From Bilabrum cf. latius (lineage: Eukaryota), in the NCBI GenBank assembly GCA_965178125.1, contig OZ237775.1:62001-126000 (forward strand): a stretch of 64,000 nucleotides of DNA, read 5' to 3'. The notes under the pieces were generated by a model that worked only from the letters and a program-made list of their open reading frames with translations, was not told the origin of the DNA and ran no database searches. Shown piece after piece: positions 5,854 through 64,000 of the stretch. Each line of letters begins with the position of its first letter. The stretch's first letter is position 1. The position numbers and the translations under genes are program-made.

Positions 5854-6019
5854 TGTACTTCGGGGTTAGGCTGCGTTCGTGCGTTGGCATTGGCGCCGCT
5901 GCTCGGCGCCAATGCGAGGATGAAGATTATCGACCTGATAGCATTGCATAACAGCAAACCGAGGCTACCCGGCATCCTGCTAGCGCTACGAAAATCTCAG
6001 AAAGGTATTTTTTGCCACA

Positions 6020-6776: not shown

Positions 6777-6829
<53 letters not shown>

Positions 6830-26634: not shown

Positions 26635-26801
26635 GGCGCAAATATTCCAGGATTTGGTGTAAGTACCCCCTTGAGGCACATGAGCTGGAACGGCTCCGAA
26701 TCTCGGGAAAATAAAAAACCAACTTGACCCTGTTTACACGAATCGTACGCATTTGGATTATTTTAACGCAATGATTGTTAGAGCAAAACTATAAATAGGA
26801 C

Positions 26802-28903: not shown

Positions 28904-28935
<32 letters not shown>

Positions 28936-35947: not shown

Positions 35948-36473
35948 TGGCAACTTGAGGTCGTTGCCTTGCCGTTTGCTCGTTCCTGGTTGATTGACAT
36001 GTACTGATGCATAGTGACAAGTTAAAACTGTAACCTTGGAGAAGTTTAGCAGAATCAGAGTGCGCCACCTCGCTCTCTTGTCGCGTACAGCTGTATAGCA
36101 GCGTCCGAGTTTTATGTGATTGCCGATCCTTTCGATGACGGCATCCGAGCAACATCTTGTGGATAGGCGCACCCGAGGTGCACCACCCTGTGGCATTGTC
36201 CACCGCTGGCGTGTGCAGATGCCAGTGGGCGTCACGCCGGCGGTGTGACTCCGAGGACTCGGCGAGGAGTCCGAAATTCGCCGAACGTTCTCTTTGCACC
36301 ACAGAATTGCACGGATCGGCATTCAAAGCAAAGATCGCTGGACAAAACCCGCCAGGGTCAAGAATCCGTCATTCACAGTCAGTACTAGAATACAGTGGGC
36401 GCTTCATCTAGCTTTCTATTCTACCCTACTGCGAATGCCAAAAGGGAAAACTGCAACTGACCTGCTGAATTCG

Positions 36474-39400: not shown

Positions 39401-39908
39401 CCTACTGGGGGATGTGCCTCTTGACGCGTACGACTACCACCTGGCCACGTCACTGGTGTCCGCTCACGTGGCGTCCAACCTGATTGCCATGGGTGCGGTG
39501 ATGATCGTGGTAGCAGCTCTCGTGTTCCCCTTCGTGTATGTGAGGACGCGCGCGTCAACGTTCCGGTGGCTGTTCGGGGTAATCGTGGTGGGGGTGACAA
39601 ACTGGATCGTGAGGAAGTGCATCTTCCGGGCATGGCTCGTGATGCCCCTGCGACTGAGGAACACAAGGGCATTCCTGCTCCTGGAGGGGATGTACTCAAT
39701 CACTGCGGGCGTACTGGCGGGTCTCGTGAGCGGGTGCCTGCGGATGGCTCAGGTGGTGATGTGGAGGATCATATAGAGTGCGAGGCTGGACGTGCCGCAG
39801 CTGCCGGGGCCACTTCGCACAGCAGATGGAGGTTTCTCAGCATATGCCGCTGCTATGCGTCTACGCATGTACCGTAATGTGCACCTGCTCGACCACGGGC
39901 TGGGCTGA
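36474..39908 (+). CDS. STRA6-like multipass membrane protein, copy 2; TAG at 36549, 38055, 38847, 38850 and 39774
   Basis: Near-identical paralog of copy 1 with TAGs at the same positions. Ends in TGA. An alternative ATG lies at 36435. Confidence 0.65.
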
Positions 39909-40348: not shown

Positions 40349-40864
40349 GGCTGGAGGGGCACTCCGTGGTGGGTCTGGACCGCGCATTATGCCGGGCCCA
40401 CGCAGTATGCCTGTGTGTCTACGGATATCCGAAATAAAGGCTCCGGGACTGCTGCGAAGGAGGGCTTGAAGGCGACAAAGGGAGGTCCCAACATCAGGGC
40501 CGGTATATGGGGGGCCTTTGGTCTGAAAGGGTCGGGGGTCTTGTAGTCCTCTTATGAGGGCTCCTACCGCTGCAGGTGATCACCTGAGATATGGTGCATC
40601 TGTGGCGGGTTCGGTAACTTAACCCAACAATGTATTTCTGTTTTTCTGTATTTCTGGCTCTCGTCATCATTGACCTAAACTACCGGAAACGAGTGTCACG
40701 TGGACCTTGCTCGTTTGGCAATGAATTGAAAAGATCGCTGGACAAAACCCGCCAGGGTCAAGAATCCGTCATTCACAATCAACACTAGAGCGCCTCATCT
40801 AGCTTTCTATTCTACCCTACTGCGAATACCAAAAAGGAAAACTGCAACTGACCTGCTGAATTCG

Positions 40865-43800
40865 ATGCAGAAGCCTGCACTGTTTGGAGCGACTCCTGGA
40901 TTCTTCTCGGAGCAAGCGGGTATTGTGCCTGACACTTGGTAGGAAGGACCATGGGAGGCTAACGTGGAGATACCAGAAAACGGTAGAGCTGGCGTTGACT
41001 TGTGCGGAGTATGTGGCCGCGATGGGTGCTGCAATTGCTGCTGGAACACTCGAGTCCCCTGCTGCGGCTCGTTCTCGTTTGGAAGATGCTTTCGAGGCTG
41101 CAGGTCTTGCGTAGTGCTTGATTTCGTCTTCAACGGGCACGAGTCGAGGGCGCTTGCCGTGGCTGTCTGCTTCCATTTCGTGTTCATGCAGCTGCTGGAT
41201 ATCGTCGCAGACCAGGGTCTCTTCTGCCGGGAGGCAATTGGCCACCTACCATTAACGACCTTCCACCTGCAAACAGCAGCATTCTTCGCTCTCATCGTGC
41301 AAGCCACTAGCAATTCCCTCTGGGCCCACCCACGCCTGCTGTGGAGCGGCGTGGGGCTGCTGTTCGCCTACCTCGGTGTGCGCGAATGGATCCGCATCGA
41401 GGCCAGCTACTGCTACGGTGGCCCGCTGGTGATGAAGAAACACCCCGTCCAGGTGACGTTGGGTACCCTGACTCTGTGCTCCTGGCTGGCAGTGGGCCTC
41501 CTCACCCTCACAGCAGCTGTGAGGACTCTCGTGATGGCCCTGGACGACTCGTGCATGGGTGGAAAAGGACTGCTGGCATCGCGGAGGTACCACGCAGCGG
41601 TTGCGGGGGAGCGGCTCCGCAGCTGGAGGCGCGGGTATGTGCCCACGCTGTGCTGCGACTGCAACTGCGGGTGTCCGGGCGGCGACGCCATCACTGAGGG
41701 ACCAAGGGAGCGCGAGGACGAGGACAAGAACAAGTCGGGGAGCGGCGCCGTGGGTGCCGGCCGATGTCGGTTCCTCTCTTTCCATCAACAGCGAGGGCGG
41801 CAGCATGGATATCCCCAGCGGCCTGGTGAATGTGAGCGTGCCCATGTCATGCTGGGAGCGGACCGTCACTGTGGTGGACAGCGAGGGGTGGAGGTGCGCT
41901 CGGCCAGGGCCGCTGGACCGCTGTATCCCCGCCCGGCTCGGTGTGGCCGTAGGCGCAACGATTTTCGCGGCCGTGCTGCTGGGCGTGCTTCCGCTTGTGT
42001 ACGAGTTCGCCATCATGGAGGGACTGAACAAGAGACTCGAGCAGATCGCCGATGCCGTGGCCAGCCAGTTTCTTCCTGTGGCCAACCAGATTCTTCCTGT
42101 AGCTAGCCAGTTTCTTCCCGTGGGCATGGATGATTCCGGGTCCATAATGGGACAGACGGAATATGACGTTGATATAGGAAGAGGGCCCGACGTGTTGCTG
42201 CAGCTGGTGCACATGGCCATCCTGGAGCTCCAGGGCATCAACAGAGGGCTGGCCACCAGCCTGTCGGTGGGCGGGATCATGGGCATGGTGGTGGGCATCG
42301 GGCTGCAGGTGTGGGCGTGCATGCGGTGGGCAGATGCTGTGCGTGGCCTACTGCTCCGTGGGTATTGCGATGAGAGCCACAAGGCTGTGCTGAAAGAGCG
42401 GGATGCCCTGGAGCTTGGGCACTACCGGGCTGAGAGGGTGCCTGGTGGCTCTGCAGGCCAAGGTGGCTGCTAGTCCGAAGGATCGAGCCATAGGGTCCAT
42501 GGGACAGCGATGGAGCGGCATGGTGCATCGGCTGCTGTCCCTGCCCCGGTGCCAGGTCCTCGCCCTCCCTCCAGCGTCAGTGTGGTGGGGCACGATGCCA
42601 AGAGTGCAGCCTCACAAGAGAGCGGGGATCCTCCCAGGGAACACAGCGAGGTAGACCTGGAGATGGGCGCGCGCACAAATATGCAGGACCCACACGAGCT
42701 CAACAGAGCGCACCGGGTGGCAGCAGAAGGGGAAGCCGTAGGGGCAGCGGCATCAGAAGAACGCGCTGCTTCGCTGCGGCAGAGACAGGGTCCGGGTGAC
42801 GATCGTGCCAGTGGACCAGGGAGTGAGGTGGGGGTGGGGCGGCTGGCACGCGGTCTGGCTGGTGACGGTGATGAAGACGATCAAGTAGACAGCGAGGGGT
42901 TCTGGGCGGCAATCCAGCCGTGGTGCAAGGGGGCCGGTGACTGTGTGCTGGGCGCGGGGCAGGGTGTGCTTGGGTCATGTGGCGCGGGGTGCTACAGGTG
43001 CCTGTGGGGCTGCTGCTGCTGCTTCGTGTGCTGCCGACTGCTGCTGCCCCCGGTGGACGAGGACTATGTGTCTTGGGGCAAGGCGGACGAGGCCTCGCGG
43101 GCGTGGGTGCGGTGGAGGGGGAAGGTGCTGGAGGGCAGGGCCAGCATGCGAGAGGTGGTTGGTGCGGAGGGAGGCAAAGGAAGCACTGGTGGGGCAGCTG
43201 CTCCTGCAGTCGCTACTGCTCGTACAGCCGCTGAGTCGGACAGTCATGTGACCTTTGTGGTGCCTCGCGCGTGGGACAGGGACCATCCGCTGCTGCTGTG
43301 CGGGTGCTGCTGCTGCGTGGACTACGCGCGCCGGGACTGCGTGGAGCTCGGGTGCACCTGCGTGGACAGGCCAAGGAACAGCGAGGGGGCAATGACCAGG
43401 GAACACGCCGAGATCGGGAGCAGGAAGCAGGTGCTCGAAGCAGCTGGTCGCATGGGACAGCACGCTCTTCCGTGGGAGTCCTCGAGTGACGACGAGTGCA
43501 GTGGTGGGCAGGTGTCCGGCACTGCGGGAAGGAGCTGGATGCCGCTGCTGTCAGGAAGCAGCAAGGCCAAGCAGAGGCGGGAGAACGGCAAAGGAAACAT
43601 GGACGGAGGGACCAAGGAAGGGGCCGCGGGGCCAGACGTCGGGGTCGACGTGGAGGTGGCGGTGAAGCGCGTGGTGCTGCCTTCTGGCCTACTGGGGGAT
43701 GTGCCTCTTGACGCGTACGACTACCACCTGGCCACGTCACTGGTGTCCGCTCACGTGGCGTCCAACCTGATTGCCATGGGTGCGGTGATGATCGTGGTGG

Positions 43801-44195
43801 CAGCTCTCGTGTTCCCCTTCGTGTATGTGAGGACGCGCGCGTCAACGTTCCGGTGGCTGTTCGGGGTGATCGTTGTGGGAGTGACAAACTGGATCGTGAG
43901 GAAGTGCATCTTCCGGGCATGGCTCGTGATGCCCCTGCGACTGAGGAACACAAGGGCATTCCTGCTCCTGGAGGGGATGTACTCAATCACTGCGGGCGTA
44001 CTGGCGGGTCTCGTGAGCGGGTGCCTGCGGATGGCTCAGGTGGTGATGTGGAGGATCATATAGAGTGCGAGGTTGGACGTGCCGCAGCTGCCGGGGCCAC
44101 TTCGCAGAGCTGACAGGGGTTTCTCAGCATATGCCGCTGCTATGCGTCTGCGCATGTACCGTAATGTGCACCTGCTCGACCACGGGCTTGGTTGA
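40865..44195 (+). pseudogene. STRA6-like copy 3 with a 2-nt deletion near 41747 (frameshift), a 3 x 21-bp expansion and an internal deletion
   Basis: Copy 3 reads agcggcg-ccgtgggtg where copies 1 and 2 read agcggcgggccgcgggtg, so the reading frame switches. It has ASQFLPV/ANQILPV/ASQFLPV at about 42060-42122 and lacks the IQQMTREED...DAVGA segment near 43146. An assembly indel cannot be excluded. Confidence 0.6.
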
Positions 44196-47099: not shown

Positions 47100-47330
47100 G
47101 TTACTATGGTCAGTGGGCTCGGCTGGCATTGTGCTTGTGTTGTGCCCAAGGCACGAAGGTGCACGACATTGTCCTGTCGTTGCGATTTTGTGCTGGTTTG
47201 GTACTGTTCACGCAAGGATATCCCAAGCGTTCGATACAACTTCAAAAGGTACTCAGCATTTATTTCTGGTTCTGGATCAGTGCAGCCTGAGTTAGCTTTG
47301 CTTTGACCTGAGGTACTCGAAGGTGCAGTG

Positions 47331-50300
47331 ATGCGTCGAGCGTGCAGGTCGGCTGCCACGAGGCTGTCTTGGCGCTTCAAAACGCAGCCTGTAAATGGAT
47401 GCATAACGACAGCTCGTGACTTCAAGGTACGACCAGCTTCGTTACAAACGGTGCTTCGAGCAGCGGCAAGAGCGTCCAGCTCGTCGCCGGTTGCGTCGGC
47501 CCAACAATAGCAACCGAGGAAGGCGGAACCCAGCACGCAGGCAAGCCAGTCCAAGGAGGCCGACCTGATTCGTATGGAAGAACAAGCCGCTGCGTTGCGA
47601 TTGGCGTCTCTATTTGCAGAGAGCGAAGCCGGTCCAGAAGGTTGGGAGGGCGGTGCTCCGGCTGACGCGTTCGGCGGCTCTCCAGCCGACCAAATGCTAT
47701 CAGAGGCAAATGGCACCGCCTCAAATATGACATTATCATCGGGGCAAATTCAGGCTCCTAGCTCCGAGGCGAACCACCCACTGGCCGCCGCTGGCACGCT
47801 GGGTGCTCCTGCCGCTGCTGCTGCTCAAGGACACGAGCTGCCGCACGCCGCTCCCGGCACAGCCTCTGGCAGCAATGACCCCGCCCCCATGTACGACGTG
47901 GACGCTCAGGAGTACAACTTCATCAACCGGCAGTCAGGGGAGAGCGCGACCTTCCGGCTGAGCCCCCGGTTCGTGGGGACCTACCGCGAGAGGACCCCCC
48001 CCTTCGGCTTCAACGGTCTGGGGGAGCTCGTCTACCAGAGGTCCTACGCCCGGGTGAGGCCGGACCTCGGGGGCAGACGAGAGAAATGGTTCGAAACGGT
48101 GGAGCGGGTGGTCAACGGGACGTACAACATGCAGAAGCGCTGGATCGAGCAGCACGACCTGGGGTGGAACCCGTGGAGGGCGCAGAGGAGCGCACAGGAA
48201 ATGTTCAGGAGGATCTTCGAGATGAAGTTCCTGCCGCCGGGGCGCGGGTTGTGGGCCATGGGCAGTCCCATCACCGAGAAGAAGATGCTGTACGCCGCCC
48301 TCAACAACTGCGCCTTTGTGTCCACGGAGAAACTGAAGCAGCAGCCCGCGCGTCCATTTGTGTTCCTCATGGACGCCGCCATGCTGGGCGTGGGTGTGGG
48401 CTTCGACACCAAGGGGGCCACCGTGGACGACCCCATGGTGGTGAGGGGGGTCAACGAGAGCAAGAAGCCAGTGCCCTGCGTGGTGCCAGACACGAGGGAG
48501 GGATGGGTGGACTCTGTCAGGACGCTGCTGGACGCGCATTTCCTGGGGAGGGCGCCCGTGGAATTCGACTACTCGCGCATCCGGGCCGCGGGGGCACCGA
48601 TCGAGGGATTCGGCGGCATAAGCAGCGGACCGGATGCCCTGAGTGACCTGCACGCGGACATCGTCAATGTGCTGGAGCCTCTTGCCGGGAAGCGCATCAC
48701 CGTGAGGGCCATCACGGACATCATGAACCTCATCGGGAGATGCGTGGTGAGCGGGAACGTGCGCCGAACCGCCGAGATCGCCTTTGGCGCCCCCGAATCG
48801 AGCGAGTTCCTTGACCTCAAGGACTTTGACAAGAACCCAGACAGGGCAGCCTACGGCTGGACCTCCAACAACAGCATCTTCGCCCCTCTTGGCATGCAAT
48901 ACGAAGAGGCATGCGAGCGAGTGGTGAGGAACGGGGAGCCGGGGTTCGCCTGGCTGGACAACATGCGGAGGTACTCTAGGATGGGCCAGCCCCCTGACGA
49001 CAAGGACTCGAGGGCGATGGGAGGCAACCCCTGCCTCGAGCAGACTCTCGAGTCGTACGAGCTATGCTGCCTCGTGGAGACCTTCCCCGCCAACCACGAC
49101 GACATCGAGGACTACAAGAAGACGCTCAAGTACGCTTATCTATACGCCAAGACGGTCACTCTGGGACGGACGCACTGGCCCATGGCAAACCGCGTGCTGC
49201 TCCGCAACCGGCGGATCGGTTGCTCCATGAGCGGCATCGCGCAGTTCGTGGCCCAGCGAGGCCTCTCTGAGCTCAGGGAGTGGTGCGAGGACGGGTACAG
49301 TGCCATCGAGCAGTACGACAAGCGGTACAGCGACTGGCTGGCCATCCCCAGGTCCATCAAGACGACGTGCATCAAGCCAAGCGGCACAGTGTCCCTGCTG
49401 GCGGGCGCCACGCCCGGCATGCACTACCCCGAGAGCCGCTTCTACATGAGGAGGGTGCGCCTGCCCAAGGGATCTGACCTTGTAGGTGCCCTGGAGAGAG
49501 CAGGGTACCACTTGGAGGAGGCGGAGCAGGAGAAGGACACGGTGGTGGTGACCTTCCCGGTCGACGTGGGAGAGGGGGTGCGGACCCAGGACGAGCTGAG
49601 CATGTGGGAGCAGCTGTCCCTGGCTGCCTTCCTGCAGAGGCACTGGGCGGACAACCAGGTATCGTGCACAGTGACCTTCGACCCAGAGACGGAGGGGCCC
49701 CAGCTGCCCCACGCCTTGCAGTACTTCCAGTACCAGCTCAAGGGGGTCAGCTTTTTGCCCAAGATGACGCACTCGTACGCGCAGATGCCCTACGAGGCCA
49801 TCGGCGAGGACGAGTACAGGTCGATGCTCGGTGGGATCGGGGCGTTGCAGTTCCATGCACCCGATGAAGCGGACCCCGCGGGGGGTGGCACCCAGGGGAG
49901 CAGCAGGGCGGGGAAAGGGGGGCCCGCCAGCGCGTACGGGTGGGCTGTGGGACCGCCGTCTGCATCCGGGACGGCGTCGGGAACGGGAACATGGCAGGGA
50001 CAGTGGCAGGGGCAGGCGGGTGGTGGGGAAGACGTGAGCCTTGCTGGGATGCCCGACCTGTTCTGCGATGCGGACGGGTGCGTGGTGCCGGCACAAAGCG
50101 GGGGATCTGTGGGTGGGAATGATGCGAGTGCGGGGGTGGGGGCGGAGGCGCGGTCGGTGGGTGCGAGACTGGAGGGGGTGCTTGGCGGTGGCGCTGCGGG
50201 CGAGGGGGCTGCAGGTGAGGGGGCCCCTGAGGACGAAAGGGAACTGTTTGGGGGCGTGCTGCCTTCGGACGAGGCAGGTGACGCGAGGGCGATGGGGGGC

Positions 50301-50387
50301 AGGGACGGGGCTGAGGGTGTGATGGGCGGTAGCGGGGGTGGGGGTGGGGAGGGGGAGAGGGGAGGGGGCCAGGGCGGGAGGCAGTGA
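47331..50387 (+). CDS. nrdJ: Class II adenosylcobalamin-dependent ribonucleoside-triphosphate reductase (monomeric type) with an N-terminal presequence-like extension; TAG at 47508-47510
   Basis: Motifs FLPPGRGLW, ALNNCAF, LGVGVGFD, VVSGNVRRTAEI, GGNPCLEQTLESYELCCLVE, RNRRIG, TCIKPSGTVSLLAG, WADNQVSCTVTF and the C-terminal FCDADGC. Ends in TGA. Confidence 0.95.
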
Positions 50388-50615
50388 GACTGCACGTGAG
50401 GGCGGTGGGCCGAATGCGATGTACAGACACACGGGCTGAAAGAAATGCTAGTATTGTATGCACTGCTGAATGACCCGATTTTTGCTGCACAAAGACACCA
50501 AAAGCGAAGTGGTGCCAGTTGCATTGATGATCGCCGCAACTGCTGTGACTCCGAGTCGTACTCAAGAACGAAACGCGAATCGATGCATGGTGAAGTCATC
50601 TGGGTTGTTGTGGGC

Positions 50616-52931
50616 ATGGCAGATGGGGATAATATTTCGCGAAAGTATCCTCCTGATGCCGATTACCTGCATGCAGAGCTTGTTGAGCGCATTGATGTAA
50701 ATGGCGGTACGGATCTTCGATTGCCGTCGTCGCTCACAGAGGGTCAGATGGAGATGCTGATGGATTTCTTGCAAAAGAGACCGCAGCTGAAGCATTTAAG
50801 TCTGCAATATGGCCTGAGGCTCGAAACTGCAGTGATTCTGGCGGCAGGGCTCCAGCGAAGTCGACACCTGTAGGTCTTGACAATCTCCTGGAATCCAGGC
50901 CTTGGTGATCAAGGTCTCACCGCAGTCCTGTAGGCGCTTGAAATGCATCCTAGTATAAATTAGCTGCATTTGGCCGGTCTCCACTGGAGCCATGCCGGTA
51001 TTGAGGCGCTTTCAGTGTTGATTCGAACTTGTCGGGAGCTGGAGCTTGTAGATGCTCGGTTGATGAAAGTTGCAGACGACAGGGAGCCACTGAAAGACGG
51101 ATACTTGGAAGCAATAACCTTGTTTGCACGGGCACTTGCTCAGCGGGGACAGAACAAAATGCAGCCTGTCGATCTTGATGTGGGCGGCTGCTCATCAGAT
51201 ATCTTGCACCCTAGCATAGGCAACTTGCTTGGAGCCTTTGCGAAGCACGGAAGCCAGGCTGGGATAGGTCATCTTTCGTTAAATGAGTCCAAATTGACTG
51301 CAGCACACATGTGCCATATCGCTCGTATGGTGGCACCTGGTTTCAGCTGTCATGACCTGCCTGTCGAGGGTGACTTTCTGGGTCCGGATGGGCAGGTGCA
51401 GCATGATCAAGTCCGCGGCTTTGTAGAAGCCAGATCCAAAGACGACCCCTTGGAGGTATCGCAGTTGCCCCCAAAGAGCGCTCTGAAACGGCTGTCTCTC
51501 GACAAGAACTCCCTGAATGGTCCCAGCTGCCTCTTGCTCGCTCGGGCACTCTCCCAGAACGACACGCTCGAGCGGCTGAGAATGAACGACAACCCGGTAG
51601 GCGCGCTGGGAGCAGCCGCAATCGCCGTTGCACTGGAACATTCCGCGCGACTCAATGCTCTCCACCTGAGTTCGGGCACTGTTCCTGCGGCATCTGCCGG
51701 ACAGGTGTTTGATGCGGTGGGCCTGAACTGTGCGCTGCATGAGCTTCGGATAGAGACAGCAAGGCCACCCGAGGGAGACGCGGTCGATAGCTTGTGCCAG
51801 GCGCTTGTAAAGCACCCCTCAATGCGTGGGATCAGATGGGACGGCTTTGCCTCCAGGGAGGACCCCGGGGTGGGTGGCTTCCTGCGAGCGATCGCAACGG
51901 CCCCAGTTTTAGAGAGGTGCATCATACCCATGCCCAGGCACCCCAACTTTACGCGAATCGGTAGAATCGTCGGTAAGGCCAAGCTTCATGAGAGATTCCA
52001 GCCAATCCTGGCGGCATGCGCGACACTGCCAAGTGCACCCGGCGCATCAGCCGCCGAGACTAGAGTCGCGTCTCAATTCCAGGGCAAGCCCGCTACCGAG
52101 AGTCCTCTGGGCCGCTGGATGGGGATTGAGTATGCCACCTCAGTGCTGCGAGCCTCGTTCAATGAGGAGCAAAAGGCTGCGTTCGACGCTGCGGAGGCCG
52201 CGAGAAGGTGTGCTGCGGGCCCGTGCAAGGAATAGACAGGCCCCGTAGTGCCGCAACCACTTTTGTGCCCATGCCCTGACGCGGCCGCCTTTTTGGCCCG
52301 CGCTTTAGACCCAGTGTGGCGACATGTGTGCAATGATGCTGCATCGGGGGCAGGGGCGGGCGCTAGCTCGGGGGCAGACGATACAGCTGCGCCTGACATG
52401 CGGATGATGCGTGGGTGCCTGCAGCTGGCATTGGCACTCGAGGCCATGGGCAGGGGCACGGGCGATTTTGCGGCATACACGAGAATGGATCTAGATCCAG
52501 ATGTAGCAGCTGGATGTGCCCGTGTGGCACGATCACGCATGTGGACTGCGTTGCGCTCGAGCGGGTGCATCCGCATGCTTCGCGCCATCTCAGTCGAGGG
52601 AAGGAGGGGTAGGGGCGCGGTGTGGGCCAGGTTGTTCCCTCTGTGGTGTGGGGTGGAAGAGGTGCTGAGTGCGGAGAGGGCGAGGGGCTTGGTGCGATGG
52701 AGGCATGGACTGGAGGCCAAGAGGGACGCTGGGATGGTGTTCCAGGCGGCGAATGAGGGCAGGCCTTTAGAGCTGGCCAGGAGGCTGAGGCTGGGCAAGC
52801 TGGCGGGCGGGCTGGAGATGGAGGGAGAGGTGGAGGACGGGGCGGGCGGGACGAAGCTTGTTGGTCCGCTGGAGGCAGCTCGATTGGGAGGACACGACGA
52901 TTGCGTTAGGGTGTTGGAGGGCATGCATTGA
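50616..52931 (+). CDS. RI-type LRR protein with a C-terminal ankyrin-like motif; TAG at 50871, 50931, 50961 and 52233
   Basis: Three track ORFs share one frame. Repeats include LKRLSLDKNSLNG and LERLRMNDNPVGALGA, and PLEAARLGGHDDCVRVL is ankyrin-like. Ends in TGA. Start uncertain (50445, 50583 or 50616). Confidence 0.72.
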
Positions 52932-54364: not shown

Positions 54365-54485
54365 TGATTGATCCGGATCGATGCGAACACACATGCATAT
54401 CGGCGGATGATCTGTGGCTCGCATGCCTCCCACTGATGATCGGATACTTCCAAAGCTCACTATCTGCCCTCCTGCATCGCACTCG

Positions 54486-56347
54486 TCACACCAAATGCCC
54501 CCGCACCTCTACGCATCCACGCCAGCGCCCCGTTGCCCCGACTCACCGCCGCCCACCACTTGCCCAGCTTCTCCCCAGCATACACCACGCTCCTGGACAC
54601 CCCCGCCGAGCACACGCCCTTGATCGTCTATCCAGCCGCCGCCCGCCCCACCGCCCCCGCCAGCGTTGGTCGCAGTGCGGCCGCCAGCCGGTGCCTAGCA
54701 GCAGCTCCCACTGCCGCCAGAGAGCCGGCCACAGCCCTTTGGCCCGGGCTGCCCCTCAGGCGATGCAGGCCCCCTACCAGGCCCCTCGAGGTCGCCCCCA
54801 GCAGCCTTGCGCGCAGAGCGCCCAGCCCCGTGCCCACGGGTGCGTGCGCCAGCTGTGCACTCCCATGGGATGCACCGTGCTACCCGCCATCGCCCCCATG
54901 CGCCTCATGCCCCCTTCTCTCTCTTGCTCTGGCCACCGCCCTCCTCGCCCTCGCCCTAGCCACCCGGGCTTCGGCCCAGCCTCGCCGCCCCAAGGCCAGC
55001 CCCACACGAGCGACGGCGGCGCTTCCGGCCCGGCCCGCGCCGCCTCTCACATTCGCACTCGTCACAGCAGCCTACCCAGCCTCGGCCAGCAGCTCCGCCG
55101 GCTCGAACGCCCGCCCCACGGCCCCCTCCGTCAGCGACTCCGAGTCCCTCCAGGCGACCTCCTGCTGCACCCACTGGGGCAGCCCCCCCAGCAGAGACAG
55201 CCCAGCCTCCGGCCCGTCCGCCTGGAACAACACCTCTTGCCCCGTGACCCGGGAGAGGAAACCACGCTCGGCAAACCACGGCGAACCTTCGCCCTCCAGT
55301 GCAGCGGGACCGCCCTTCTCCTGCTCTTCCGCCCCCTCACTCTACCCCTACTTGTCCGTGTCTCTGTACTCATCCACCAGCTCCCCCTGCAGCAGCCCCT
55401 TGCCCTAGCCATCTCCCCCCGAGCCCCATTCCGACTGCCCTCCCCCCTGTGCTATGCCGAGATACACGCTAGCAATCGCCGCCCTGTTCTTCCTCACGAT
55501 GTTCATCACCTTGTCTGGGTGCTCCCCCAGCAGCATCCGCCAGTCGCCCGCATACGACAGCCCGCACACAGAGGCACACAGCTCGTCCAAGGTGAAGCGG
55601 GGAGGCAGGAGGAGCAACGCCGCGCGGAGAGCTGCCTGTCTGTTCCTCAGCACCGCTCGGTCCAAGTCGGGTCTGGTGCGGAGGACCCGCACCGGCTTGT
55701 GGAGCCTCCCCGCGGCGTACAGGGAGGTCCAGGAGGAGCAGTCCGCCGCGAGGTCCGTCGTGGAGATGACGCCGTACTTAATGCGGGGCCACGGGCTAGA
55801 AGAGGAGGAGGAGGAAAATGATGATGATGATGATGATGATGAAGGGTGCTCGTTTCGCTTTACGGCTGCGGTGGGTGCAGGGACCTGCGAGCATTCGAAA
55901 GAGGCGAATAGGATTCATTTGCGGTGGCGCACTATGCAGAAGGGTTTGCTAGAGTGAGTGGGTGCATCTAAGTGTACTTACCAACGCATTGTACCACATT
56001 CCAGCGCCAAACCCAGTTTGCATCATTGAAACAGCCTTAGGACCGAGGTGGCCAGCGCCTGCGTAGTGATCTCGGTGCCTCCTAAAATTTTCTTCATGCC
56101 ACGCAAGGGGATCATCCACGGCAAAAATCATATCAACCATAGGTGGTGGTCCAGAGAAATCTGCGAAAGTACCAGAGTAGATTCTATTGCGATCCGAAAT
56201 GGTGGCCCCGAAGAATAGTAGGTGCAACTGCCTGCTGCATCGCTCACTGGCATATCCATCCTATTCAAATACGCCGCTACCGTATGCTATACCAAATGAA
56301 ACACTCGGGAAGCACGATAGAATATTATCAAATTTTATAGACGGCAT
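54486..56347 (-). CDS. TAM41: Mitochondrial phosphatidate cytidylyltransferase Tam41; introns 56247-56161 and 55981-55885; seven TAGs (56261, 55405, 55348, 55342, 55072, 54880, 54628)
   Basis: Motifs AYGSGVFE*DG, MVDMIFAVDDP..WH, KYGVIS, LYAAGRLHKPV, LSYAGDWRMLLGEHPDKVMNIV and *TIKGVCSAG..YAGEKL. Ends in TGA. Confidence 0.92.
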
Positions 56348-56709: not shown

Positions 56710-57216
<507 letters not shown>

Positions 57217-57428
57217 GCGCCGTGAGCGCTGTGAGAGAGTGGCAGGTATGAATTGATGATTTACCGACAGATTGTGACCAGCTGTGTTTTAAATCTAGAT
57301 ATACCTGGTACAGCAACCTTCGCTCTTGCGGTGGTTGCTGGCGGCCTCACTGATGTTGTCATCTGCTGGTCTGCCCGGGCTTACGTATCTTACGTCTCGA
57401 GCCGGGTCGACCACGACGATAGGTCGCG

Positions 57429-60400
57429 ATGCGCGACGAGTCGGCGACGACGAGCCCAGCAGCGAATCTGCACGGTACTACAAGCGAATCTTGTTTGCGT
57501 AGATTCGTCGATCCGTTGAAAGGCCTGACAGAAGATTATCGCCCAATTCTCACTCGTACTGATAAGTCGAGAACATACACCGAGATAAAGAAGGCTCCAT
57601 TCTATACGTTACCTCTGAACGTAAACATGTCAGGCTCACAAGACGGCTCATCAGCATCATGGGATGAGGAAGATCCTCGCACGTGGATCGTGACGGCAGT
57701 CACTGCCGCCCTATCGGTCATTGTATCTCACCTTGCGTGGTGGATTTGGTATCGATGCGTTATATCGTCCTTAAACAGGTCAAGTCCCGCCGCTGGAGGG
57801 CTATACGAGGGTGCCGCCCTTGCCTGGGAAATGTACGGCGATTTCTCTGGCGAAGCTGCTGACCCTGTCAAGGCTTTTGTCTGTGATATAGCGCACGCAA
57901 TCGCCGTAAAACGGACTAATGAGACGGTTGAAGGCATCGCAGATGGTGAACAAGCGTTGCGGTCGCCGAGACCGTTCAATTCCAAGGAGTCAGCGCGTCC
58001 AGCTCCATCTCCCGTTCCATCCAGTCGGTCAGGGGCAAGTTCAGAGCGACTTTCTAAAGGAGGTTCGGGAAAGCCAAAGTTTCTGTTTGACTCCCTTGCG
58101 AGCATGGAAGAAGAAGTCCAGTCTGGCCTGACCAAGTCCGAGGCTCGCGAGGTCATGGTTCGCCTTGGTCGCATCATGAAGAAGGTGACCAGCCCGGTGC
58201 GATCGTGGCTCGGGTGGATTCTATGCGACTGCCTGGAAGACTACCGCTACAATGTGGACAGCTTAACTCCGGAGAACAAGCGCAAAGTTGTCTTCGGCAT
58301 GATCGACGAAGATTTCAAGCTCGATGACTCCGACGAGGACACGAGCTGCATGGGCGAGCTGCGCCACATGCTCTGTTGCTATCGATGCGGACCATGCGTG
58401 CCGTCCTGCAGGGATGCGTGCTGCTGTTGGTCGTCTTGTGCTGACTGCTGGGACGGCTGCACCTCAGACAAGGGCGCGTGCGGATGCTGCTGCACCTGGC
58501 TTCCCGAGACCTACTGCTGCCGCTCCCCCACACCAATGGCCCCCGCGAGCAAAACGTACAAGCTGGTCCTTGCGAGGCCCCTTCTGGAGCCAATGAAGCC
58601 GCCGCTGCGTGGAACTATCCCCGAAGTGCAAGCCATCCGCGAGTGGACAGAGGTATCGAGCGACGCGCTGGCACCATCCCACCCGCGCCGCCCGGACAAA
58701 GTGTGGAACCACGGCCCCTGGCGGGCTATGGAAGAGCTCACGCAGGAACACCGGCCCGCGCTGCAGACGCACATGGGCGTGTGGGAGCTCAGCCAGATAA
58801 GGCTGGTGCCGTCCATGTCCTCGAGCATGACCTTGGGCCTGCGAGTACAGCATGAGGCCGGTATGGGCGAGGTGCAGCCCCTCACACCGGGACATGCCCT
58901 GAGTTTCTCGGACTTTAAGGAGGGACGCGTGGTTGTGAAGGTGGACAAGGCGTGGGGCACAGATGATTGGGACGCTGACGGCAGCTGGAGCCTGCACCTA
59001 TCGCCGCGTTTCGATTTCCGTGGCAATGCCCGGCGGGGTGCAAGTCCGACGGACGGTATAGCGGGCAGAGGCCATTTTACAGATGGCGTTGTAGTTGATG
59101 CCGTGCCCTTGACTGGCCTCCACCTAAAGATCCCGGTGGATCCTGGCATGAAGCTGCTGCAGGAGCTGGTCATGAAGAACCGAAAAACGTTCGCAGAGTC
59201 CATGCTGGACTTTCAGTTCCTTCAGCAAGACCGTCACTCTGGAGCCGCAGCAGGCAGACATGCCCGCAGTCAGTAGCGCCCAACATCTGCTCCATTGTAG
59301 GAAATGTACCGGGAACTCATCCTCACAGAGGCAGTACTAGTAGGTCACGAGGCGCACGCAGGCCTCCGCCGGCTAGGATCGGACGGGCGCGGAGGCAGGA
59401 GAAGGTTGACGAGCGGCACTGGTGTGTCGCGTGTCGCCTCGGTGAAGCGAGCGGCAAGCAGAAAGACACACCCGAGAGAACAAGGTCAGCACTCAAACGG
59501 TGCTGCTGCGGTGAGCTCCATCGCAGCAGGCCGTGCGGCCCGCGCGCCCATGGGCATGCTGCCACCCGCGTCGGGAGCAGGTGAGACCAGGCCCGCACCA
59601 TTTGTGCCACACAGTGGAGGAAGCAAGAGCATTGGGGGCGGCTATGGGATGCACGCTGGTACCGGGGGCATGATGGAAGCAGCATGTCGTGGAAGCTGCG
59701 AAGACCCAGCGATCGCACCGGATGCAGCTAGCCCGAGCGCTGTCGTGCCACTGGTTGCGCCCAGTGGTCAAGCCAAAGCCAGCAAACATGATCAGAACGC
59801 CAAAGGTTCAATCAAGGTGCGTGAGCTTACCCCGGAGGAGAGGGCAGCCGATCGTGAGCTGTCCGAGACCATCCAGTCGATGGACTGGTCACCGATGTGG
59901 GAGGAGCTGCTGATGCTCAGGGGCGGGTCTCACTAGTACTCGGCGCTCTACGAGGAGAACCTTGAGCAGGCAAGGAAGACGGCACGGGAAAAGTTCGGGC
60001 GCAGCATCGAATGGGCCTCCGCCTTTGAGGACAGGGACCTGTTGTCTCTTCCAGGGGGTGGATCCGGGACCGAGATGCTGGCTCACCATGGAGGTGCTTC
60101 ACGTCAAGGGCTAGGGCCTGTTGTCCACCGCCGGCAGTCCTCTGTAGACTTTACCGGCGGGAACTTTGCTGTGGGTGCCGTGCAATTGGAGCAGCTGATC
60201 CCTTCGTCCGACTCTGCTCGAGTGGTGGTGCAGGGGGCTGCCGGGACGGGCAAGACTACGCTGCTGAAGCGCCTTGGATACCTATGGGCGACAGGGCCTG
60301 GATATGACGTGCCAGTGGAGGCTGATACACGTGACGTGGCTTGCTGGCAGCAATTTGACCTGGTGATGCGGGTGGATCTGTCATCCATTGTGTTCGAAAG

Positions 60401-63400
60401 CGCAAGTACCTTCAGTGATGTGCTTGCGATGGTGCTAGGTCGGTCAGCGGACTCTGCAAGCGTCGGTAAGATGGTGCGTATGGGAGAGGTACGACTGCTG
60501 TTGCTGCTGGATTCTCTCGATAGCTGCTCGCACACTGAGAGCGACAGCTACAAGTGCGCAAGGCAGCTATTGCAGGGTATTGCGCCACCTAGCGTCTCGA
60601 TGGTCGTGTCTTCCCGACCTGTGAATCAGCCCCTGCTACAAGGTGATCAGTGGGCGTTTAGCCGGTGCGTGTAGGTGAAGGGGCTGCCAAGCTCCGAGGT
60701 GGAGGCATTCGTGCGCATTGCAGCAAGTAAGATATCAATGGAAGACTAGGTGGATGCAGTGCTGCAGCAGCTGCAGGCATCGGCTGATATGTGGCGGCAT
60801 GCCCGTGTCCCTGGCCAGCTCGAAATGATGTGTAACATCCTGCTGCGACTGCAGCTGACACAGCAAGACGGTAGCCCAATCAGCACGGCAAGGCCAAGGA
60901 GCGGGACTGCCGCTAGCACCAGCTCCGCGTCGCCCCCCGATAGCCCTCTCAGGGCAAGCTCCGCCACGGTCTCGACTGGAAACTTCACCGCCATGTTCGA
61001 CCTTCACCTGGGCCTGAATCTAGTGCGCATGGACAGCGCCAGGGTGGCAGGGCGGGAGGGACGCAGACAATTGCAGGTCGGTGGATGCAGCCGGCTGCTG
61101 GAGGAGCGGTATTTTTCCAATGCGACCAGTGGCCGAGACGTGCTGCTCGCGGGGCTCGAGTCAACTAGCCGGTTCGCTGAAGTGGCTTCCAAGGCAACGG
61201 TGCGAGCCACGAGATGGCAAATGATCGAAAAAGAGCTGGTAGAGCATGTGGAGAGGGCATAGAAGCTCGGCATGGTCGAGTTCGAGGGCGAGGCGCATCT
61301 CCTGGAAAACTTCCGATTCCCCCATCCTCAGTTCGCTGACCTCACGCTAGCGTGGGTCACGGTGAAGCGTATGCTGGAGGCGTCGGATGGAGTGGATCCA
61401 AAGGTGAGCATTCGGCCTATGCAGCCGTTCCTGGACTTGGTGGAGCGGCGGCAGCATTCTGGCGTGGCTGTCCTAGATGACACTAGTGACGAGGCAGCAA
61501 GCAAGGATCCGGGTAGAAACTCTGTTGAGGTGCCGGCGCTGATCTCCGAGTTGGCAAAGCAAGCAGTTTCTGATCATGGAGATTCTGACAAACCGGGGCG
61601 TCAGCTCAAGTGGCGATTCGTGACCGGGCTGCTCTGCAGGTACTGCTCTCGCCCCGTTGATTCGCGCGGCATGGTCAAGTCTGACAGGCTGGCACTCGAT
61701 ACTCAAATTCTGAGGCTTTGGGTACTTGCACTGGCGATCGAAACATGCACGGTGCTGTAGGAGCCAGCGGATGCGCTGGCAGTGCTCCTGCCACACGTGG
61801 ACGAAATTGCCGGGAGTGCAATGGTCAATGGTGCTTCTCAGGGCCTTGCGCTCGCCGATGTCGTTGGTTCGTCCATTGTGCCCGATATGTACTGCGCTGC
61901 CGTCGCCACCGCTAACCTTGATCTTGCGGCGGCCCTAGCCATTTATCTGGAGGCATAGAGTGGTGCTGCTGGTGACACAGGCGGAACTGACGTGCTATTG
62001 CAGCCGTGTCTGTTGCATAAAGGGTAGCCCGCTGCGGTGGTGCTGTTTGGGCTACTGGATGCGGATCAACTGCTCGAGCTCGAGTAGCTAAAAGCTATTG
62101 TTTTGCGCGGTCTCGCTGTTCAAACTCCTGTGGATGATGGATCGGGCCGACTAGATCTAGATACAAGGGGTGGTGAAGCTTCAGCCGATGCAAAAACTGC
62201 CGATGTGGGAGCTGCTGATGCGACAGCTGCCGATGTGGGAGCTGCTGATGCAACAGCTGCCGATGTGGGAGCTGCCGATGTGGGAGCTGCTGATGCAACA
62301 GCTGCCGATGTGGGAGCTGCCGATGTGGGAGCTGCTGATGCGACAACTGCCGATGTGGGAGCTGCCGATGTGAAAACTGCTGATGTGACAGCTGCCGATG
62401 TGGGAGCTTCCGATGTGGGAGCTTCCGATGTGGGAGCTTCCGATGTGAAAGCCGCCGATGGCAGTGAGGGCACTGGTGATGGTGGGACTGCAGTCGGATG
62501 CTCGTCTGTAGACCAGGCTTTGGCTTTGCCACTGCAGGATGTGCTTGCATCGGTGGTCTCTAATCGCGATTCGAATGTGACCAGAGTCGCGCTTTCGTGG
62601 ATTGCAGAGTCTGAGGCTGATGCGGCCGCGTCAAGAGTTGACTTGCCCGCTCTGATCAAAGTAGCAATAACTCATGGGCGCTGCATGAATGCAGCCATGT
62701 TGCTTGCAGCAGCGTGTCGGTCGTTCCCTGAAGGTAGGTGGCTGGACGCATGCTCCTGTCTGGTTGACGCAGCTACCTCAACAAGCAATGCATTTGCCCT
62801 ACAATCAATCGCGCTTTCTGTGGCGGATCCGGATGTTTGGAAGGCTCTGTGCAGCACCCCGTTCGCTCTGGTGCTCCTCGGCCGCTGCGTCCAGAGGGGC
62901 GATAACGACCGCGGTGGTGACTCGCACGAAGAGAACGAAGCTGCGCGGGGTCGCATTGCAGAAGCACTCATGCAGCAGAGGATCCATCCTGACATGGTAC
63001 CATGGAGACTTACGGACAAAACGCTACGGACCGTAATCGTCCGTCAATCAATTCTGAATACCTGTGGAGTCCTGACTCGTGATGATGAGTCCGCTGTGTC
63101 TGATGGGGATGTGCAGTTGGCCTCTAAAATTGTTGCCTGGACTGCAGTGGCCAGCGAGACAAAGATCTAGCCCGATACCGATGCACCGCTTCAGCGGAAA
63201 CTTCTAGCCGATGCACTGACAAGCCAGGGACCAGTAGAGATCCATCGCGGCCTCATTAGCACTGGATTATTGCTGCACGGGGCAGACGATATGACCTGGC
63301 GATGGCTAGCTGAAGGAATTGTCCGCAAGCAGCGCTCTTGTTCGTGCCTCCTAGAGAAAAGTGCTCCGCCTGTCTGGCAGTTGCAAGCGTACCCTCAGCT

Positions 63401-64000
63401 TGCGGCTCGTGCCCTTAAGGCTGCTTTGCAATGGATGCAAAATCGCGACAACGATAGAGCCGCGGCACCGCGGAGCATCGGATGGCTCGATTTTACCACC
63501 ATTAGTACAGTGAGCCGGGGCGGCGGTGGCACAGCACTCAAGGCGAGCGAGGATGCAACAGGGAGTCTGCGTGAATCCGACTCTTCTTTGAACAAAGTTC
63601 CGCCTCGACCAAAACAAGTGTCGCGCGAGCCTCCCGTGCTCGAGCTCAATATGGCCAATAGTGACCTTGGATCGGGTGGACTTGCACCCGTTGTAGCTAC
63701 CCTTAGGAAGCTATCGTAGCTGGAGACTCTGAACCTGCCCTCCTGCAACCTTCATGACAAGGAGGCGACTGCCTTAGTGGATTGCATGGAGGCCATGACT
63801 AAACTGCTTCGCCTAGATTTGTCAGGTAACTTTATCACAGGGAAGGGCAGTCGTGCAATTGCCGGAGTTTTGTCTAGAATGCCAAACCTGCAACGACTGG
63901 ACCTGTGTGGCATTCAGATAGACTCAGAAGGCGCCTGGGCTCTAGCGTAGTCCTTGACCGTCCATACAAGTCTGAAATACCTTAATGTGTCCTCTACAGG
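57429..64000 (+). CDS. Giant NLR-like protein: N-terminal TM helix, Cys-rich region, NACHT NTPase, pentapeptide repeat and RI-type LRRs (3' end outside window); 13 in-frame TAGs
   Basis: Seven track ORFs are all in one frame, with no TAA or TGA across about 6.6 kb. Walker A GAAGTGKT (about 60234), Walker B LLLLDSLD, VVSSRP, FPHPQF, and LRRs from about 63640 (LRLDLSGNFITGKG, LQRLDLCGIQIDSEGA). The start may be 57429 or 57627. Confidence 0.85.
62197..62460 (+). repeat. 15-bp-unit coding minisatellite (ADVGA/ADATA/SDVGA pentapeptides)
   Basis: Repeated gctgccgatgtggga and gctgctgatgcaaca units. Confidence 0.93.

What the first reader, a model, noticed from the sequence alone, without database searches (positions are those of the whole stretch)
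57429..64000. Hidden giant membrane-anchored NLR-like (TM-NACHT-LRR) gene
Seen: a frame of more than 2,190 codons interrupted only by 13 TAGs (59274, 59298, 59934, 60672, 60747, 61260, 61758, 61956, 62025, 62085, 63168, 63717, 63948). It has one TM helix (WIVTAVTAALSVIVSHLAWWIWY), a Cys-dense tract, about 700 aa with no domain I recognise, NACHT motifs and RI-type LRRs. Known: NACHT-LRR is the NLR immune receptor architecture, normally soluble with a DD, CARD, TIR or HeLo effector. Inference: this is a candidate protist immune or cell-death sensor with an uncharacterised, membrane-tethered and possibly palmitoylated N-terminal effector. Standard-code gene callers would not see it.
Basis: partly seen in the sequence, partly recalled or inferred. 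Interest (0 to 1): 0.72.

Follow-up and report, generated by a model that had tools for sequence, protein, structure and literature searches.

The report
Membrane-anchored NACHT-LRR gene with TAG codons
This is one real, conserved gene of an unidentified GC-rich protist that reads TAG as an amino acid; it encodes an NLR-type molecular switch (NACHT plus leucine-rich repeats) tied to a membrane by a lineage-specific, cysteine-rich front end of unknown function.

Summary
Frame 57429-64000(+) is open for 2,190 codons. It has 13 TAG at exactly the listed positions and no TAA or TGA; the other five frames carry 30-80. TAG is a sense codon across the window, most likely Gln.

Pfam finds a full NACHT domain at aa 931-1096 (E 4.5e-14, above cut-off). 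The last 120 aa are ribonuclease-inhibitor-type LRRs, cut by the window end. The hydrophobic helix (aa 86-108) and the 18-Cys tract (aa 307-364) are real. Both are conserved in the few relatives found.

Those relatives are all short fragments. Five lie on a contig of one length and cover aa 67-2064 colinearly at 65-91% identity. Standard-code gene callers broke this relative at in-frame stops. A second contig length holds both the Cys module and the P-loop.

This supports one conserved gene. The immune or cell-death role, palmitoylation and membrane insertion remain inference. Both AlphaFold jobs failed (pLDDT 33 and 35), and no transcript evidence was obtained. TM-bearing NACHT proteins are already known, so this is a new variant of a known kind.

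The parts
57429..64000 (+). Whole open frame, at least 2,190 codons, 3' end cut by the window; no stop codon reached
57627..57629 (+). Alternative, possibly true, start codon (Met67)
   Evidence: The ortholog fragment P0003 and the relatives P0007 and P0008 start here or 12-25 aa before the helix. GC3 of codons 1-66 (0.52) does not discriminate.
57684..57752 (+). Hydrophobic helix, aa 86-108: predicted single-pass signal anchor, N-terminus outside, rest cytosolic
   Evidence: KD 1.73. Relatives give 1.59, 3.03 and 1.62. Flanks are acidic before (-4) and basic after (+2) in this gene and its ortholog. This is the only stretch of the AF2 model with pLDDT above 50.
57795..57914 (+). Conserved block 1 of the N-terminal module (aa 123-162)
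   Evidence: Conserved in P0003, P0007 and P0008
58080..58304 (+). Conserved block 2 of the N-terminal module (aa 218-292)
   Evidence: Conserved in P0003, P0006 and P0007
58347..58523 (+). Cys tract, 18 Cys in aa 307-364
   Evidence: 17 of 18 Cys columns are kept in P0003, 17 of 18 in the 48%-identical P0006, and 9 of 18 in P0007.
58773..59273 (+). aa 449-615, no known family, strand-rich in a low-confidence model
   Evidence: 70% identical to ortholog fragment P0005
59286..59873 (+). aa 620-815, Gly/Ala/Ser/Arg-rich linker
   Evidence: 77% identical to ortholog fragment P0004
59880..60014 (+). Helical segment just before the NACHT domain (aa 818-862), conserved in paralogs
   Evidence: P0009 and P0010 align here and continue into the P-loop
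60219..60716 (+). NACHT NTPase domain (aa 931-1096). Walker A at aa 936-943, Walker B at aa 1023-1031, sensor-1-like motif at aa 1059-1064. Holds one TAG (aa 1082).
   Evidence: motif positions counted by hand on the print
60789..61328 (+). aa 1121-1300, best-conserved stretch, helical, no known family
   Evidence: 91% identical to ortholog fragment P0012
62197..62460 (+). In-frame 15-nt tandem repeat, 17.6 copies (a pentapeptide repeat)
   Evidence: absent from ortholog fragment P0011
62496..63620 (+). aa 1690-2064, conserved region with no known family between the repeat and the LRRs
   Evidence: Covered by the 65%-identical ortholog fragment P0011
63636..63998 (+). RI-type leucine-rich repeats, about four, cut by the window end
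   Evidence: weak Pfam LRR hits
59274..63950 (+). Span of the 13 in-frame TAG codons, read as sense and most likely Gln

Best explanation
A single, intact, protein-coding gene of a gene-dense, about 60% GC eukaryote in which UAG is a sense codon, most likely Gln. It encodes a STAND-class molecular switch of more than 2,190 residues. In order, it has a short acidic N-terminus, one hydrophobic signal-anchor helix, and a lineage-specific cytosolic module (two conserved blocks plus an 18-Cys tract). About 450 residues of conserved but unclassifiable sequence follow. Then come a NACHT NTPase, about 950 residues of helical or unclassified sequence with a variable pentapeptide repeat, and C-terminal RI-type LRRs. 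Inferred mechanism, by analogy with NACHT-LRR proteins: the LRR end keeps the NTPase off until a ligand or perturbation is sensed. Nucleotide exchange then drives oligomerisation of the NACHT module, which brings the membrane-embedded N-terminal modules together at a membrane surface. The output is either local signalling from that membrane or disturbance of the membrane itself. Shown: the frame, the code, the domains, their order, and their conservation in relatives. Inferred: membrane insertion and topology, the switch mechanism, and any defence or cell-death role.
For: Frame and code. In-frame TAG occurs in all 15 other long ORFs examined, and these end with TGA (13) or TAA (2). The TGA of the Asp-tRNA synthetase gene falls at the homologous C-terminus: the alignment reaches the last residue of both query and chain. 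A TAG in that enzyme's catalytic core aligns with Gln in two human chains and His in a third chain.

Domains: NACHT lies above Pfam's cut-off over nearly the whole profile. A profile of this gene plus its relatives hits 34 solved chains at E<=1. The best 15 are all NLR chains by name, or 5irl/5irm, which I recall as NOD2. The best is NAIP at E 3.2e-5, and the alignment extends past the P-loop. RI-type LRRs.

One gene, under selection: five fragments (P0003, P0005, P0004, P0012, P0011) are each recorded on a contig of 6,723 bases. They cover aa 67-445, 449-613, 620-815, 1121-1300 and about 1537-2064 in order, at 84, 70, 77, 91 and 65% identity. A second pair, each on a contig of 6,402 bases, comprises P0006 (Cys module, 48-49% identity) and P0010 (pre-NACHT helices plus P-loop, 42% identity). 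The fusion is therefore shared by a paralog.

The helix, its charge asymmetry and the Cys columns are conserved.
Against: Placing fragments on one contig rests on equal contig lengths, not on seeing the contigs. The ortholog's NACHT core (aa 816-1120) and aa 1301-1536 were not recovered as fragments. Both structure predictions are unusable (pLDDT 33.2 and 35.1), so neither the NACHT fold nor any fold of the N-terminal module was confirmed. No dedicated TM predictor was available, and the hydropathy of the helix is only moderate (1.73; 1.59 in the ortholog). No winged-helix or helical NLR accessory family was detected after the NACHT domain. Nothing in the neighbourhood (histone H3, Tam41, class II ribonucleotide reductase, an LRR protein) points to defence. 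The gene's 3' end is outside the window.
Confidence: 0.6

Rival explanations
1. The protein is a membrane-anchored NACHT-LRR switch with a housekeeping or regulatory role, such as a trafficking, organelle or flagellar signalling scaffold. It is not an immune or cell-death sensor.
For: RI-type LRRs of this kind match many flagellar and axonemal LRR proteins as well as NLRs: radial spoke protein 15, LRRC34 and dynein regulatory complex subunits are among the best 25 hits. There is one ortholog at 65-91% identity and no local tandem expansion: no paralog in the window at E<=1e-3. Neighbouring genes are housekeeping. No known death or effector domain was found.
Against: Several diverged paralogs of the N-terminal module exist (P0006, P0007, P0008 at 31-48% identity), as expected of an expanding sensor family. 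An in-frame repeat differs between orthologs. The NACHT-plus-LRR architecture is used for sensing wherever it has been studied; this is general knowledge and was not tested here.
Confidence: 0.3
2. The Cys tract is a folded metal-thiolate (Zn, Cu or Fe-S) mini-domain, not a palmitoylated cysteine string.
For: The spacing of 17 of 18 Cys, and of intervening non-Cys residues, is kept in a paralog that is only 48% identical overall. This suggests a structural constraint. The tract starts about 200 residues after the helix, so it is not juxtamembrane.
Against: The tract contains no His, and no match to any metal-binding family was found. Runs of three or four consecutive Cys are typical of acylated cysteine strings (recalled, not tested). 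The neighbouring multi-TM proteins at 32312-39908 also carry Cys runs next to hydrophobic segments.
Confidence: 0.35
3. The frame holds two or more separately expressed genes: an N-terminal membrane protein and a NACHT-LRR protein with its own internal start.
For: There is no transcript evidence either way. aa 620-815 is a low-complexity linker.
Against: No TGA or TAA occurs in 6.57 kb, while every other long ORF examined ends with one. The same order of parts is seen in the ortholog fragments, and the Cys module and P-loop co-occur for a paralog. The linker itself is 77% identical in the ortholog.
Confidence: 0.07
4. It is a pseudogene or non-coding stretch, with TAG acting as a stop.
For: The frame has 13 stops under the standard code.
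Against: TAG lies in conserved positions of essential enzymes in the same window. The frame has 0 TAA or TGA against 30-80 in the other frames. Protein-level conservation is 65-91% along the frame.
Confidence: 0.02

Closest known systems
Metazoan NOD-like receptors (NAIP, NLRC4, NOD2, NLRP family)
   Same: A central NACHT NTPase is followed, after helical sequence, by C-terminal RI-type LRRs. The best solved-structure matches of both the NACHT part and the LRR part are these proteins. NOD1 and NOD2 are recruited to membranes by S-palmitoylation (recalled, not checked in a paper here).
   Different: No CARD, PYD, BIR or Death domain was found. Sequence similarity to solved NLRs is confined to about 50-80 residues around the P-loop. 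No NLR winged-helix or HD2 family was detected. The protein has an integral hydrophobic anchor and an orphan N-terminal module. The NACHT-to-LRR spacer is about 950 residues, far longer than I recall for animal NLRs (not measured here).
Membrane-localised TM-NACHT proteins of the sea cucumber Apostichopus japonicus (AjNLRC4, AjNLR-new; PMC13133943, passages read) and bacterial NACHT proteins with TM segments (bioRxiv 10.1101/2022.07.19.500537, passages read)
   Same: A NACHT module in the same polypeptide as transmembrane segment(s). These show that a membrane-bound NLR-like protein is not without precedent.
   Different: Those proteins combine TM with Ig domains or lack LRRs, and some are argued to expose the NACHT domain outside the cell. 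Here there is one N-terminal anchor, a Cys-rich module and C-terminal LRRs, and the charge distribution puts the NACHT domain in the cytosol. No sequence relationship of the N-terminal parts was found.
NACHT+LRR proteins of choanoflagellates (PMC6040629, passages read) and TM-signature NB-type NLR-like proteins of algae (PMC7145615, passages read)
   Same: NLR-like architectures in unicellular eukaryotes without animal death-fold effectors. Some have predicted TM segments.
   Different: The algal proteins carry NB-ARC-type domains with TPR, WD40 or LRR. None is described with this N-terminal module, and none is from an organism with a UAG sense codon. I did not compare sequences, and the supplements of these papers were not opened.
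UAG-only nuclear code of Iotanema spirale (PMC5304391, abstract read)
   Same: UAG is read as Gln while UAA and UGA stay stops, which is what this window shows.
   Different: The organism here is not identified. It has a Tam41-type mitochondrial enzyme and a cytochrome b561. Whether it is related to Iotanema was not tested.

Membership tests
NACHT NTPase (Pfam PF05729, STAND class) | Match to the family profile above the curated cut-off over most of its length | tested here: met
   E 4.5e-14, 53.1 bits against 26.7, profile positions 2-161 of 167, aa 931-1096. Other P-loop families listed are all below their cut-offs, and NB-ARC is not listed.
NACHT NTPase (Pfam PF05729, STAND class) | Walker A, Walker B with a second acidic residue, and a sensor-1-like motif in the expected order | tested here: met
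   Read directly at aa 936-943, 1023-1031 and 1059-1064 on the print. The NACHT consensus for these motifs is recalled.
NACHT NTPase (Pfam PF05729, STAND class) | Closest solved relatives are NACHT proteins, not other P-loop NTPases | tested here: met
   Single sequence: 9 of 14 chains at E<=1 are named NLRs and 2 more are 5irl/5irm. Family profile: the best 15 of 34 are NLRs or 5irl/5irm, best E 3.2e-5.
NACHT NTPase (Pfam PF05729, STAND class) | STAND three-dimensional fold (NBD, helical domain, winged helix) | tested here: inconclusive
   The AF2 model of aa 800-1560 has mean pLDDT 33.2. No fold search was run on it.
NACHT NTPase (Pfam PF05729, STAND class) | Nucleotide-dependent oligomerisation | not testable with these tools
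   Needs the purified protein.
Animal-type NLR (NOD-like receptor) | NACHT followed by C-terminal RI-type LRRs | tested here: met
   The number of repeats is unknown because the window ends.
Animal-type NLR (NOD-like receptor) | N-terminal death-fold or BIR effector domain | tested here: not met
   No such family at E<=0.1. The N-terminal 900 aa have only 7 relatives among 1.84 billion representatives, all unnamed fragments.
Animal-type NLR (NOD-like receptor) | Common descent with the metazoan NLR clade | not tested
   No NACHT phylogeny was built. Word-indexed searches with the NACHT region returned nothing usable.
Single-pass membrane protein (signal anchor) | A conserved hydrophobic stretch of about 20 residues with charge asymmetry | tested here: met
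   Best 19-residue KD means are 1.73, 1.59, 3.03 and 1.62 in 4 of 4 family members that cover the N-terminus. The flank charge is more negative before the stretch than after it in 3 of 4.
Single-pass membrane protein (signal anchor) | Actual membrane insertion and topology | not testable with these tools
   No TM predictor was available and no experiment was possible.
Palmitoylated cysteine-string proteins | A dense Cys cluster that is S-acylated | not testable with these tools
   The cluster exists and is conserved. Acylation cannot be read from sequence.

The most novel reading that the evidence does not exclude
The conserved TM helix plus Cys-rich module is a previously undescribed membrane-resident executioner or channel-forming effector. 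NACHT oligomerisation would cluster pre-inserted helices into a pore or lesion. That would make a built-in-membrane counterpart of plant resistosomes and fungal HeLo systems, evolved in a protist lineage that reads UAG as Gln and so far invisible to annotation.
Probability: 0.15. Interest if true: 0.8.

Novelty: new variant of a known kind. Interest (0 to 1): 0.5.

Why it matters
If this protein is a sensor, it adds a non-animal, non-plant, non-fungal lineage to the organisms that use NACHT-LRR switches. Its output module has no known relative and is fixed in a membrane from the start. That bears on how often NLR-like architectures were assembled independently, and on what their ancestral outputs were. 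It also gives a concrete case of a large conserved gene family that public protein collections hold only as fragments, because the organism's UAG sense codon was read as a stop. The code itself matters too: UAG is sense while UAA and UGA remain stops. That type is documented for very few eukaryotes (PMC5304391, abstract).

Tried and rejected
Structure:
- AF2 on aa 800-1560 with a 4-row alignment gave pLDDT 33.2.
- AF2 on aa 67-615 with a 6-row alignment gave pLDDT 35.1.
- Both models are unusable, so no Foldseek or VIA search was run.

Homolog searches that found nothing useful:
- Word-indexed search, NACHT region against proteins of 1,204-3,833 aa: none of 8,000 candidates scored.
- aa 816-1120 against proteins of 167-534 aa: none of 6,247 candidates scored.
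- In the 'shorter' search, 2 of the 4 hits (P0013, P0014) match only the pentapeptide repeat and were dropped as low-complexity matches.
- ESM Atlas with aa 67-400: no usable hit (one search was a length slip).
- PADLOC: one hit at E 0.0093 on the P-loop only.
- NCBIfam: only an LRR-region match far below cut-off.

DNA of relatives:
- The alignment query was rejected as too variable.
- Two metagenome scans, with aa 67-400 and aa 1121-1301, gave no relative.
- No whole genome is held for this window, so paralogs could not be counted and no suppressor tRNA could be sought. There is no tRNA in the window.

Expression:
- No RNA holder is listed among the sequencing runs.
Transcript structure, 5' end and expression remain open.

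Meaning of TAG:
- Utp25 had no solved relative.
- The aligned part of Tam41 holds no TAG.
- The GH3 TAGs lie in poorly conserved positions aligned to K and L.

Other negatives:
- The neighbouring Cys-rich multi-TM proteins are not significantly similar to the N-terminal module (E 0.24).
- Amoebophrya sp. ex K. veneficum was considered as the source and rejected. Passages say its genome is AT-rich and reads all three stops (PMC12005148).
- Earlier findings of this scan: three look-ups, nothing returned.
- One script meant to locate motifs was not run. Motif coordinates were instead counted by hand on the print and could be off by a residue.
Full report
THE OBSERVATION

Translating 57429-64000(+) with TAG read as Gln gives 2,190 residues without a stop. 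The frame has no TAA and no TGA. The other five frames of the same 6.57 kb carry 30 to 80 of them, so this is a coding frame and not chance.

The frame opens after a TGA at 57351-57353 and runs off the window's end. The first in-frame ATG is at 57429. The gene upstream is a canonical histone H3 at 56807-57217, read directly. It ends with TGA and leaves a 211-base spacer (57218-57428).

THE GENETIC CODE OF THE WINDOW

The window is about 60% GC and gene-dense. Of 24 long table-15 ORFs scanned, 11 match Pfam families typical of a cellular eukaryote. These include Cys- and Asp-tRNA synthetases, HMG-CoA reductase, Utp25, Wbp11, Tam41, cytochrome b561, a GH3 hydrolase and a class II ribonucleotide reductase. 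All 15 other long ORFs I tabulated carry in-frame TAG; 13 end with TGA and 2 with TAA.

That table is partly circular, because the ORFs were delimited by TAA and TGA. Independent support comes from the Asp-tRNA synthetase alignment. It reaches the last residue of both the query and the human chain, so its TGA is a true stop.

Evidence that TAG means Gln:
- The one TAG inside the synthetase's catalytic core aligns with Gln in two human chains and His in a third chain.
- A TAG in HMG-CoA reductase aligns with Asn in the human enzyme.
- Fragments of an ortholog of the gene under study end where this gene has CAG (aa 446, 816, 1301) or TAG (aa 616). That is 4 of 5 fragment ends; the fifth, P0011, ends opposite Ser or at a contig end.
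- This gene's TAG at aa 1278 faces Gln in the ortholog.

Evidence against, or neutral:
- TAG at aa 624, 1553 and 1914 faces Lys, Tyr and Leu in the ortholog.
- Two GH3 TAGs face Lys and Leu in weakly conserved positions.
- The residues facing TAG (Gln, Lys, Tyr, Leu) each have a codon one base change from TAG (standard-code reasoning; the ortholog's DNA was not seen), so these cases say little.

I put Gln at about 0.8. UAG as sense with UAA and UGA kept as stops is the code type reported for Iotanema spirale (PMC5304391, abstract). Amoebophrya sp. ex K. veneficum does not fit: passages say it is AT-rich and reads all three stops (PMC12005148). I did not identify the organism, and no whole genome is held.

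DOMAINS

Pfam finds NACHT at aa 931-1096 with E 4.5e-14 and 53.1 bits against a cut-off of 26.7, covering profile positions 2-161 of 167. Walker A, Walker B and a sensor-1-like motif sit at aa 936-943, 1023-1031 and 1059-1064 (hand count).

Against solved structures, the single sequence gives only weak P-loop-centred hits. Of the 14 at E<=1, 9 are named NLRs and 2 are 5irl/5irm. A profile built from this gene and its relatives raises NAIP to E 3.2e-5. The best 15 of its 34 hits are all such chains, and the alignment runs into the NACHT-specific stretch after the P-loop.

The last 120 residues match ribonuclease inhibitor (E 7.9e-12), 5irl (E 1.6e-10), NLRP1, NLRC4 and many flagellar RI-type LRR proteins. 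Only about four repeats lie inside the window. Nothing is detected between aa 1 and 925, or between the NACHT domain and the LRRs, apart from a spurious repeat match.

THE N-TERMINAL PART AND ITS RELATIVES

An exhaustive phmmer search of aa 1-900 against 1.84 billion representatives found 7 proteins, all short (103-379 aa) and all from run assemblies. A word-indexed search of aa 816-2190 among shorter proteins added two more real relatives. It also gave two low-complexity matches to the pentapeptide repeat, which I dropped.

Five fragments are each recorded on a contig of 6,723 bases. In order, they cover:
- aa 67-445 at 84% identity
- aa 449-613 at 70%
- aa 620-815 at 77%
- aa 1121-1300 at 91%
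- aa about 1537-2064 at 65%

This is an ortholog from a close relative, chopped at in-frame stops by a standard-code gene caller. It also shows protein-level conservation along the frame, including the parts with no known domain.

Two further fragments are each on a contig of 6,402 bases. P0006 holds the Cys module at 48-49% identity, and P0010 holds the pre-NACHT helices plus P-loop at 42%. The fusion of the orphan module to a NACHT domain is therefore shared by a paralog. P0007 and P0008, at 31% and 39% identity, carry the helix and the conserved blocks. Placing fragments on the same contig is inferred from equal contig lengths; I could not see the contigs.

THE HELIX AND THE CYS TRACT

The helix at aa 86-108 has the highest hydropathy in the protein (1.73). 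A hydrophobic stretch at the same place is present in all 4 family members that cover it (1.73, 1.59, 3.03, 1.62). In this gene and its ortholog the flank is acidic before (-4) and basic after (+2). By the positive-inside rule (established knowledge), the short N-terminus would face outside and the remaining roughly 2,080 residues, including the NTPase, would lie in the cytosol.

All four relatives begin 12-25 residues before the helix, so Met67 at 57627 may be the true start. GC3 does not decide this.

The Cys tract has 18 Cys in 58 residues. Of these columns, 17 of 18 are kept in the ortholog and 17 of 18 in the 48%-identical paralog, together with several intervening residues. Such strict spacing fits a metal-thiolate mini-domain at least as well as a palmitoylated cysteine string. 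The tract is also about 200 residues from the helix. I leave both readings open. A single Cys two residues after the helix (aa 110) is the better juxtamembrane acylation candidate; this is inference.

WHAT IT MOST LIKELY DOES

The architecture has an orphan N-terminal output module, a NACHT switch and a repeat sensor. This is the tripartite plan described for eukaryotic and bacterial NACHT proteins (10.1101/2022.07.19.500537, passages). The most likely mechanism follows that plan: ligand-dependent release of the LRR lock, nucleotide exchange, oligomerisation, and induced proximity of the N-terminal modules. Here those modules are already in a membrane. Whether the output is signalling from that membrane or damage to it cannot be told.

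The case for a defence role is indirect. Several diverged paralogs of the N-terminal module exist. A 15-nt in-frame repeat of 17.6 copies at 62197-62460 is absent from the ortholog.

Against a defence role: there is no local expansion, the neighbours are housekeeping genes, no known effector domain was found, and the LRR type is shared with axonemal proteins.

COMPARISON WITH WHAT IS KNOWN

By its profile and motifs the protein is a member of the NACHT family. It works like an NLR. However, it fails one defining feature of animal NLRs, a death-fold or BIR N-terminus, and its descent was not tested.

Membrane-bound NACHT proteins are in print. Examples are Ig-TM-NACHT proteins of a sea cucumber (PMC13133943, passages) and bacterial NACHT proteins with TM segments. 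NB-type NLR-like proteins of algae have TM signatures (PMC7145615, passages). NACHT+LRR proteins without death domains were seen in choanoflagellates (PMC6040629, passages).

My searches listed no paper whose title or abstract describes a TM plus Cys module plus NACHT plus LRR protein in a protist. My code searches listed none that fits a GC-rich organism with this code. These are searches of one library. The supplements of these papers, which may list architectures, were not opened.

WHAT FAILED

No run is on record as RNA, and the single read-laying run returned nothing, so the transcript test also remains undone. Two metagenome scans found no DNA of relatives.

VERDICT

The gene, its code and its architecture are real and conserved. 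The functional reading is plausible but unproven. The finding is a new variant of a known kind, of moderate interest. The UAG-only code of the organism is a notable by-product.

Noticed in passing
whole window; e.g. 16184-18229(-), 11484-13295(-), 23146-26733(-): UAG is a sense codon, most likely Gln, in every long gene examined. TGA (13 of 15) and TAA (2 of 15) end the ORFs. This is a UAG-only reassignment in a GC-rich, gene-dense eukaryote that I could not identify. The code type is documented for very few eukaryotes (PMC5304391 abstract).
   Followed up: partly
32312-35947(+), 36249-39908(+), 40730-44195(+): Tandem copies of an orphan protein of about 1,200 aa, with several hydrophobic segments and runs of consecutive Cys. 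Copies 1 and 2 are 91% identical over 1,188 aa. The third copy is split over two frames, which suggests a frameshift, an intron or an assembly error. There is no Pfam family and no significant similarity to the N-terminal module of the NACHT gene.
   Followed up: partly
56807-57217(+): A canonical histone H3 gene lies 211 bases upstream of the NACHT gene's first ATG, on the same strand, and ends with TGA.
   Followed up: no
47307-50387(+): A class II (B12-dependent type) ribonucleotide reductase (Pfam RNR_Alpha and RNR-II insertion domain). This is uncommon in eukaryotes, with a long Gly-rich C-terminal tail.
   Followed up: no
50400-52931(+): An 843-aa ORF with an RI-type LRR (LRR_6, E 6.1e-06), three genes upstream of the NACHT gene. 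It is not similar to it at E<=1e-3.
   Followed up: no
54457-55914(-): The Tam41 match starts at profile position 95 and at residue 149 of the solved chain. The N-terminal part of the enzyme is missing from this ORF, so there may be an intron or a separate exon. The 3' part of the ORF looks non-coding.
   Followed up: no
62197-62460(+): An in-frame 15-nt tandem repeat of 17.6 copies encodes a pentapeptide repeat. It is absent from the ortholog fragment and draws spurious hits to bacterial low-complexity proteins.
   Followed up: yes
5939-7336(+) and 26775-30260(+): Dipeptide microsatellites lie inside coding frames: a Gly-Met run in the Wbp11-like ORF and a Thr-Gln run in an orphan 1,161-aa ORF.
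   Followed up: no
window 57200-64000: Near-identical sequence (0.94-1.00 of sampled words) is held by runs filed under three different coded organism labels and three studies. Small shares occur in a fourth. The organism may live with, or in, other sequenced organisms.
   Followed up: no
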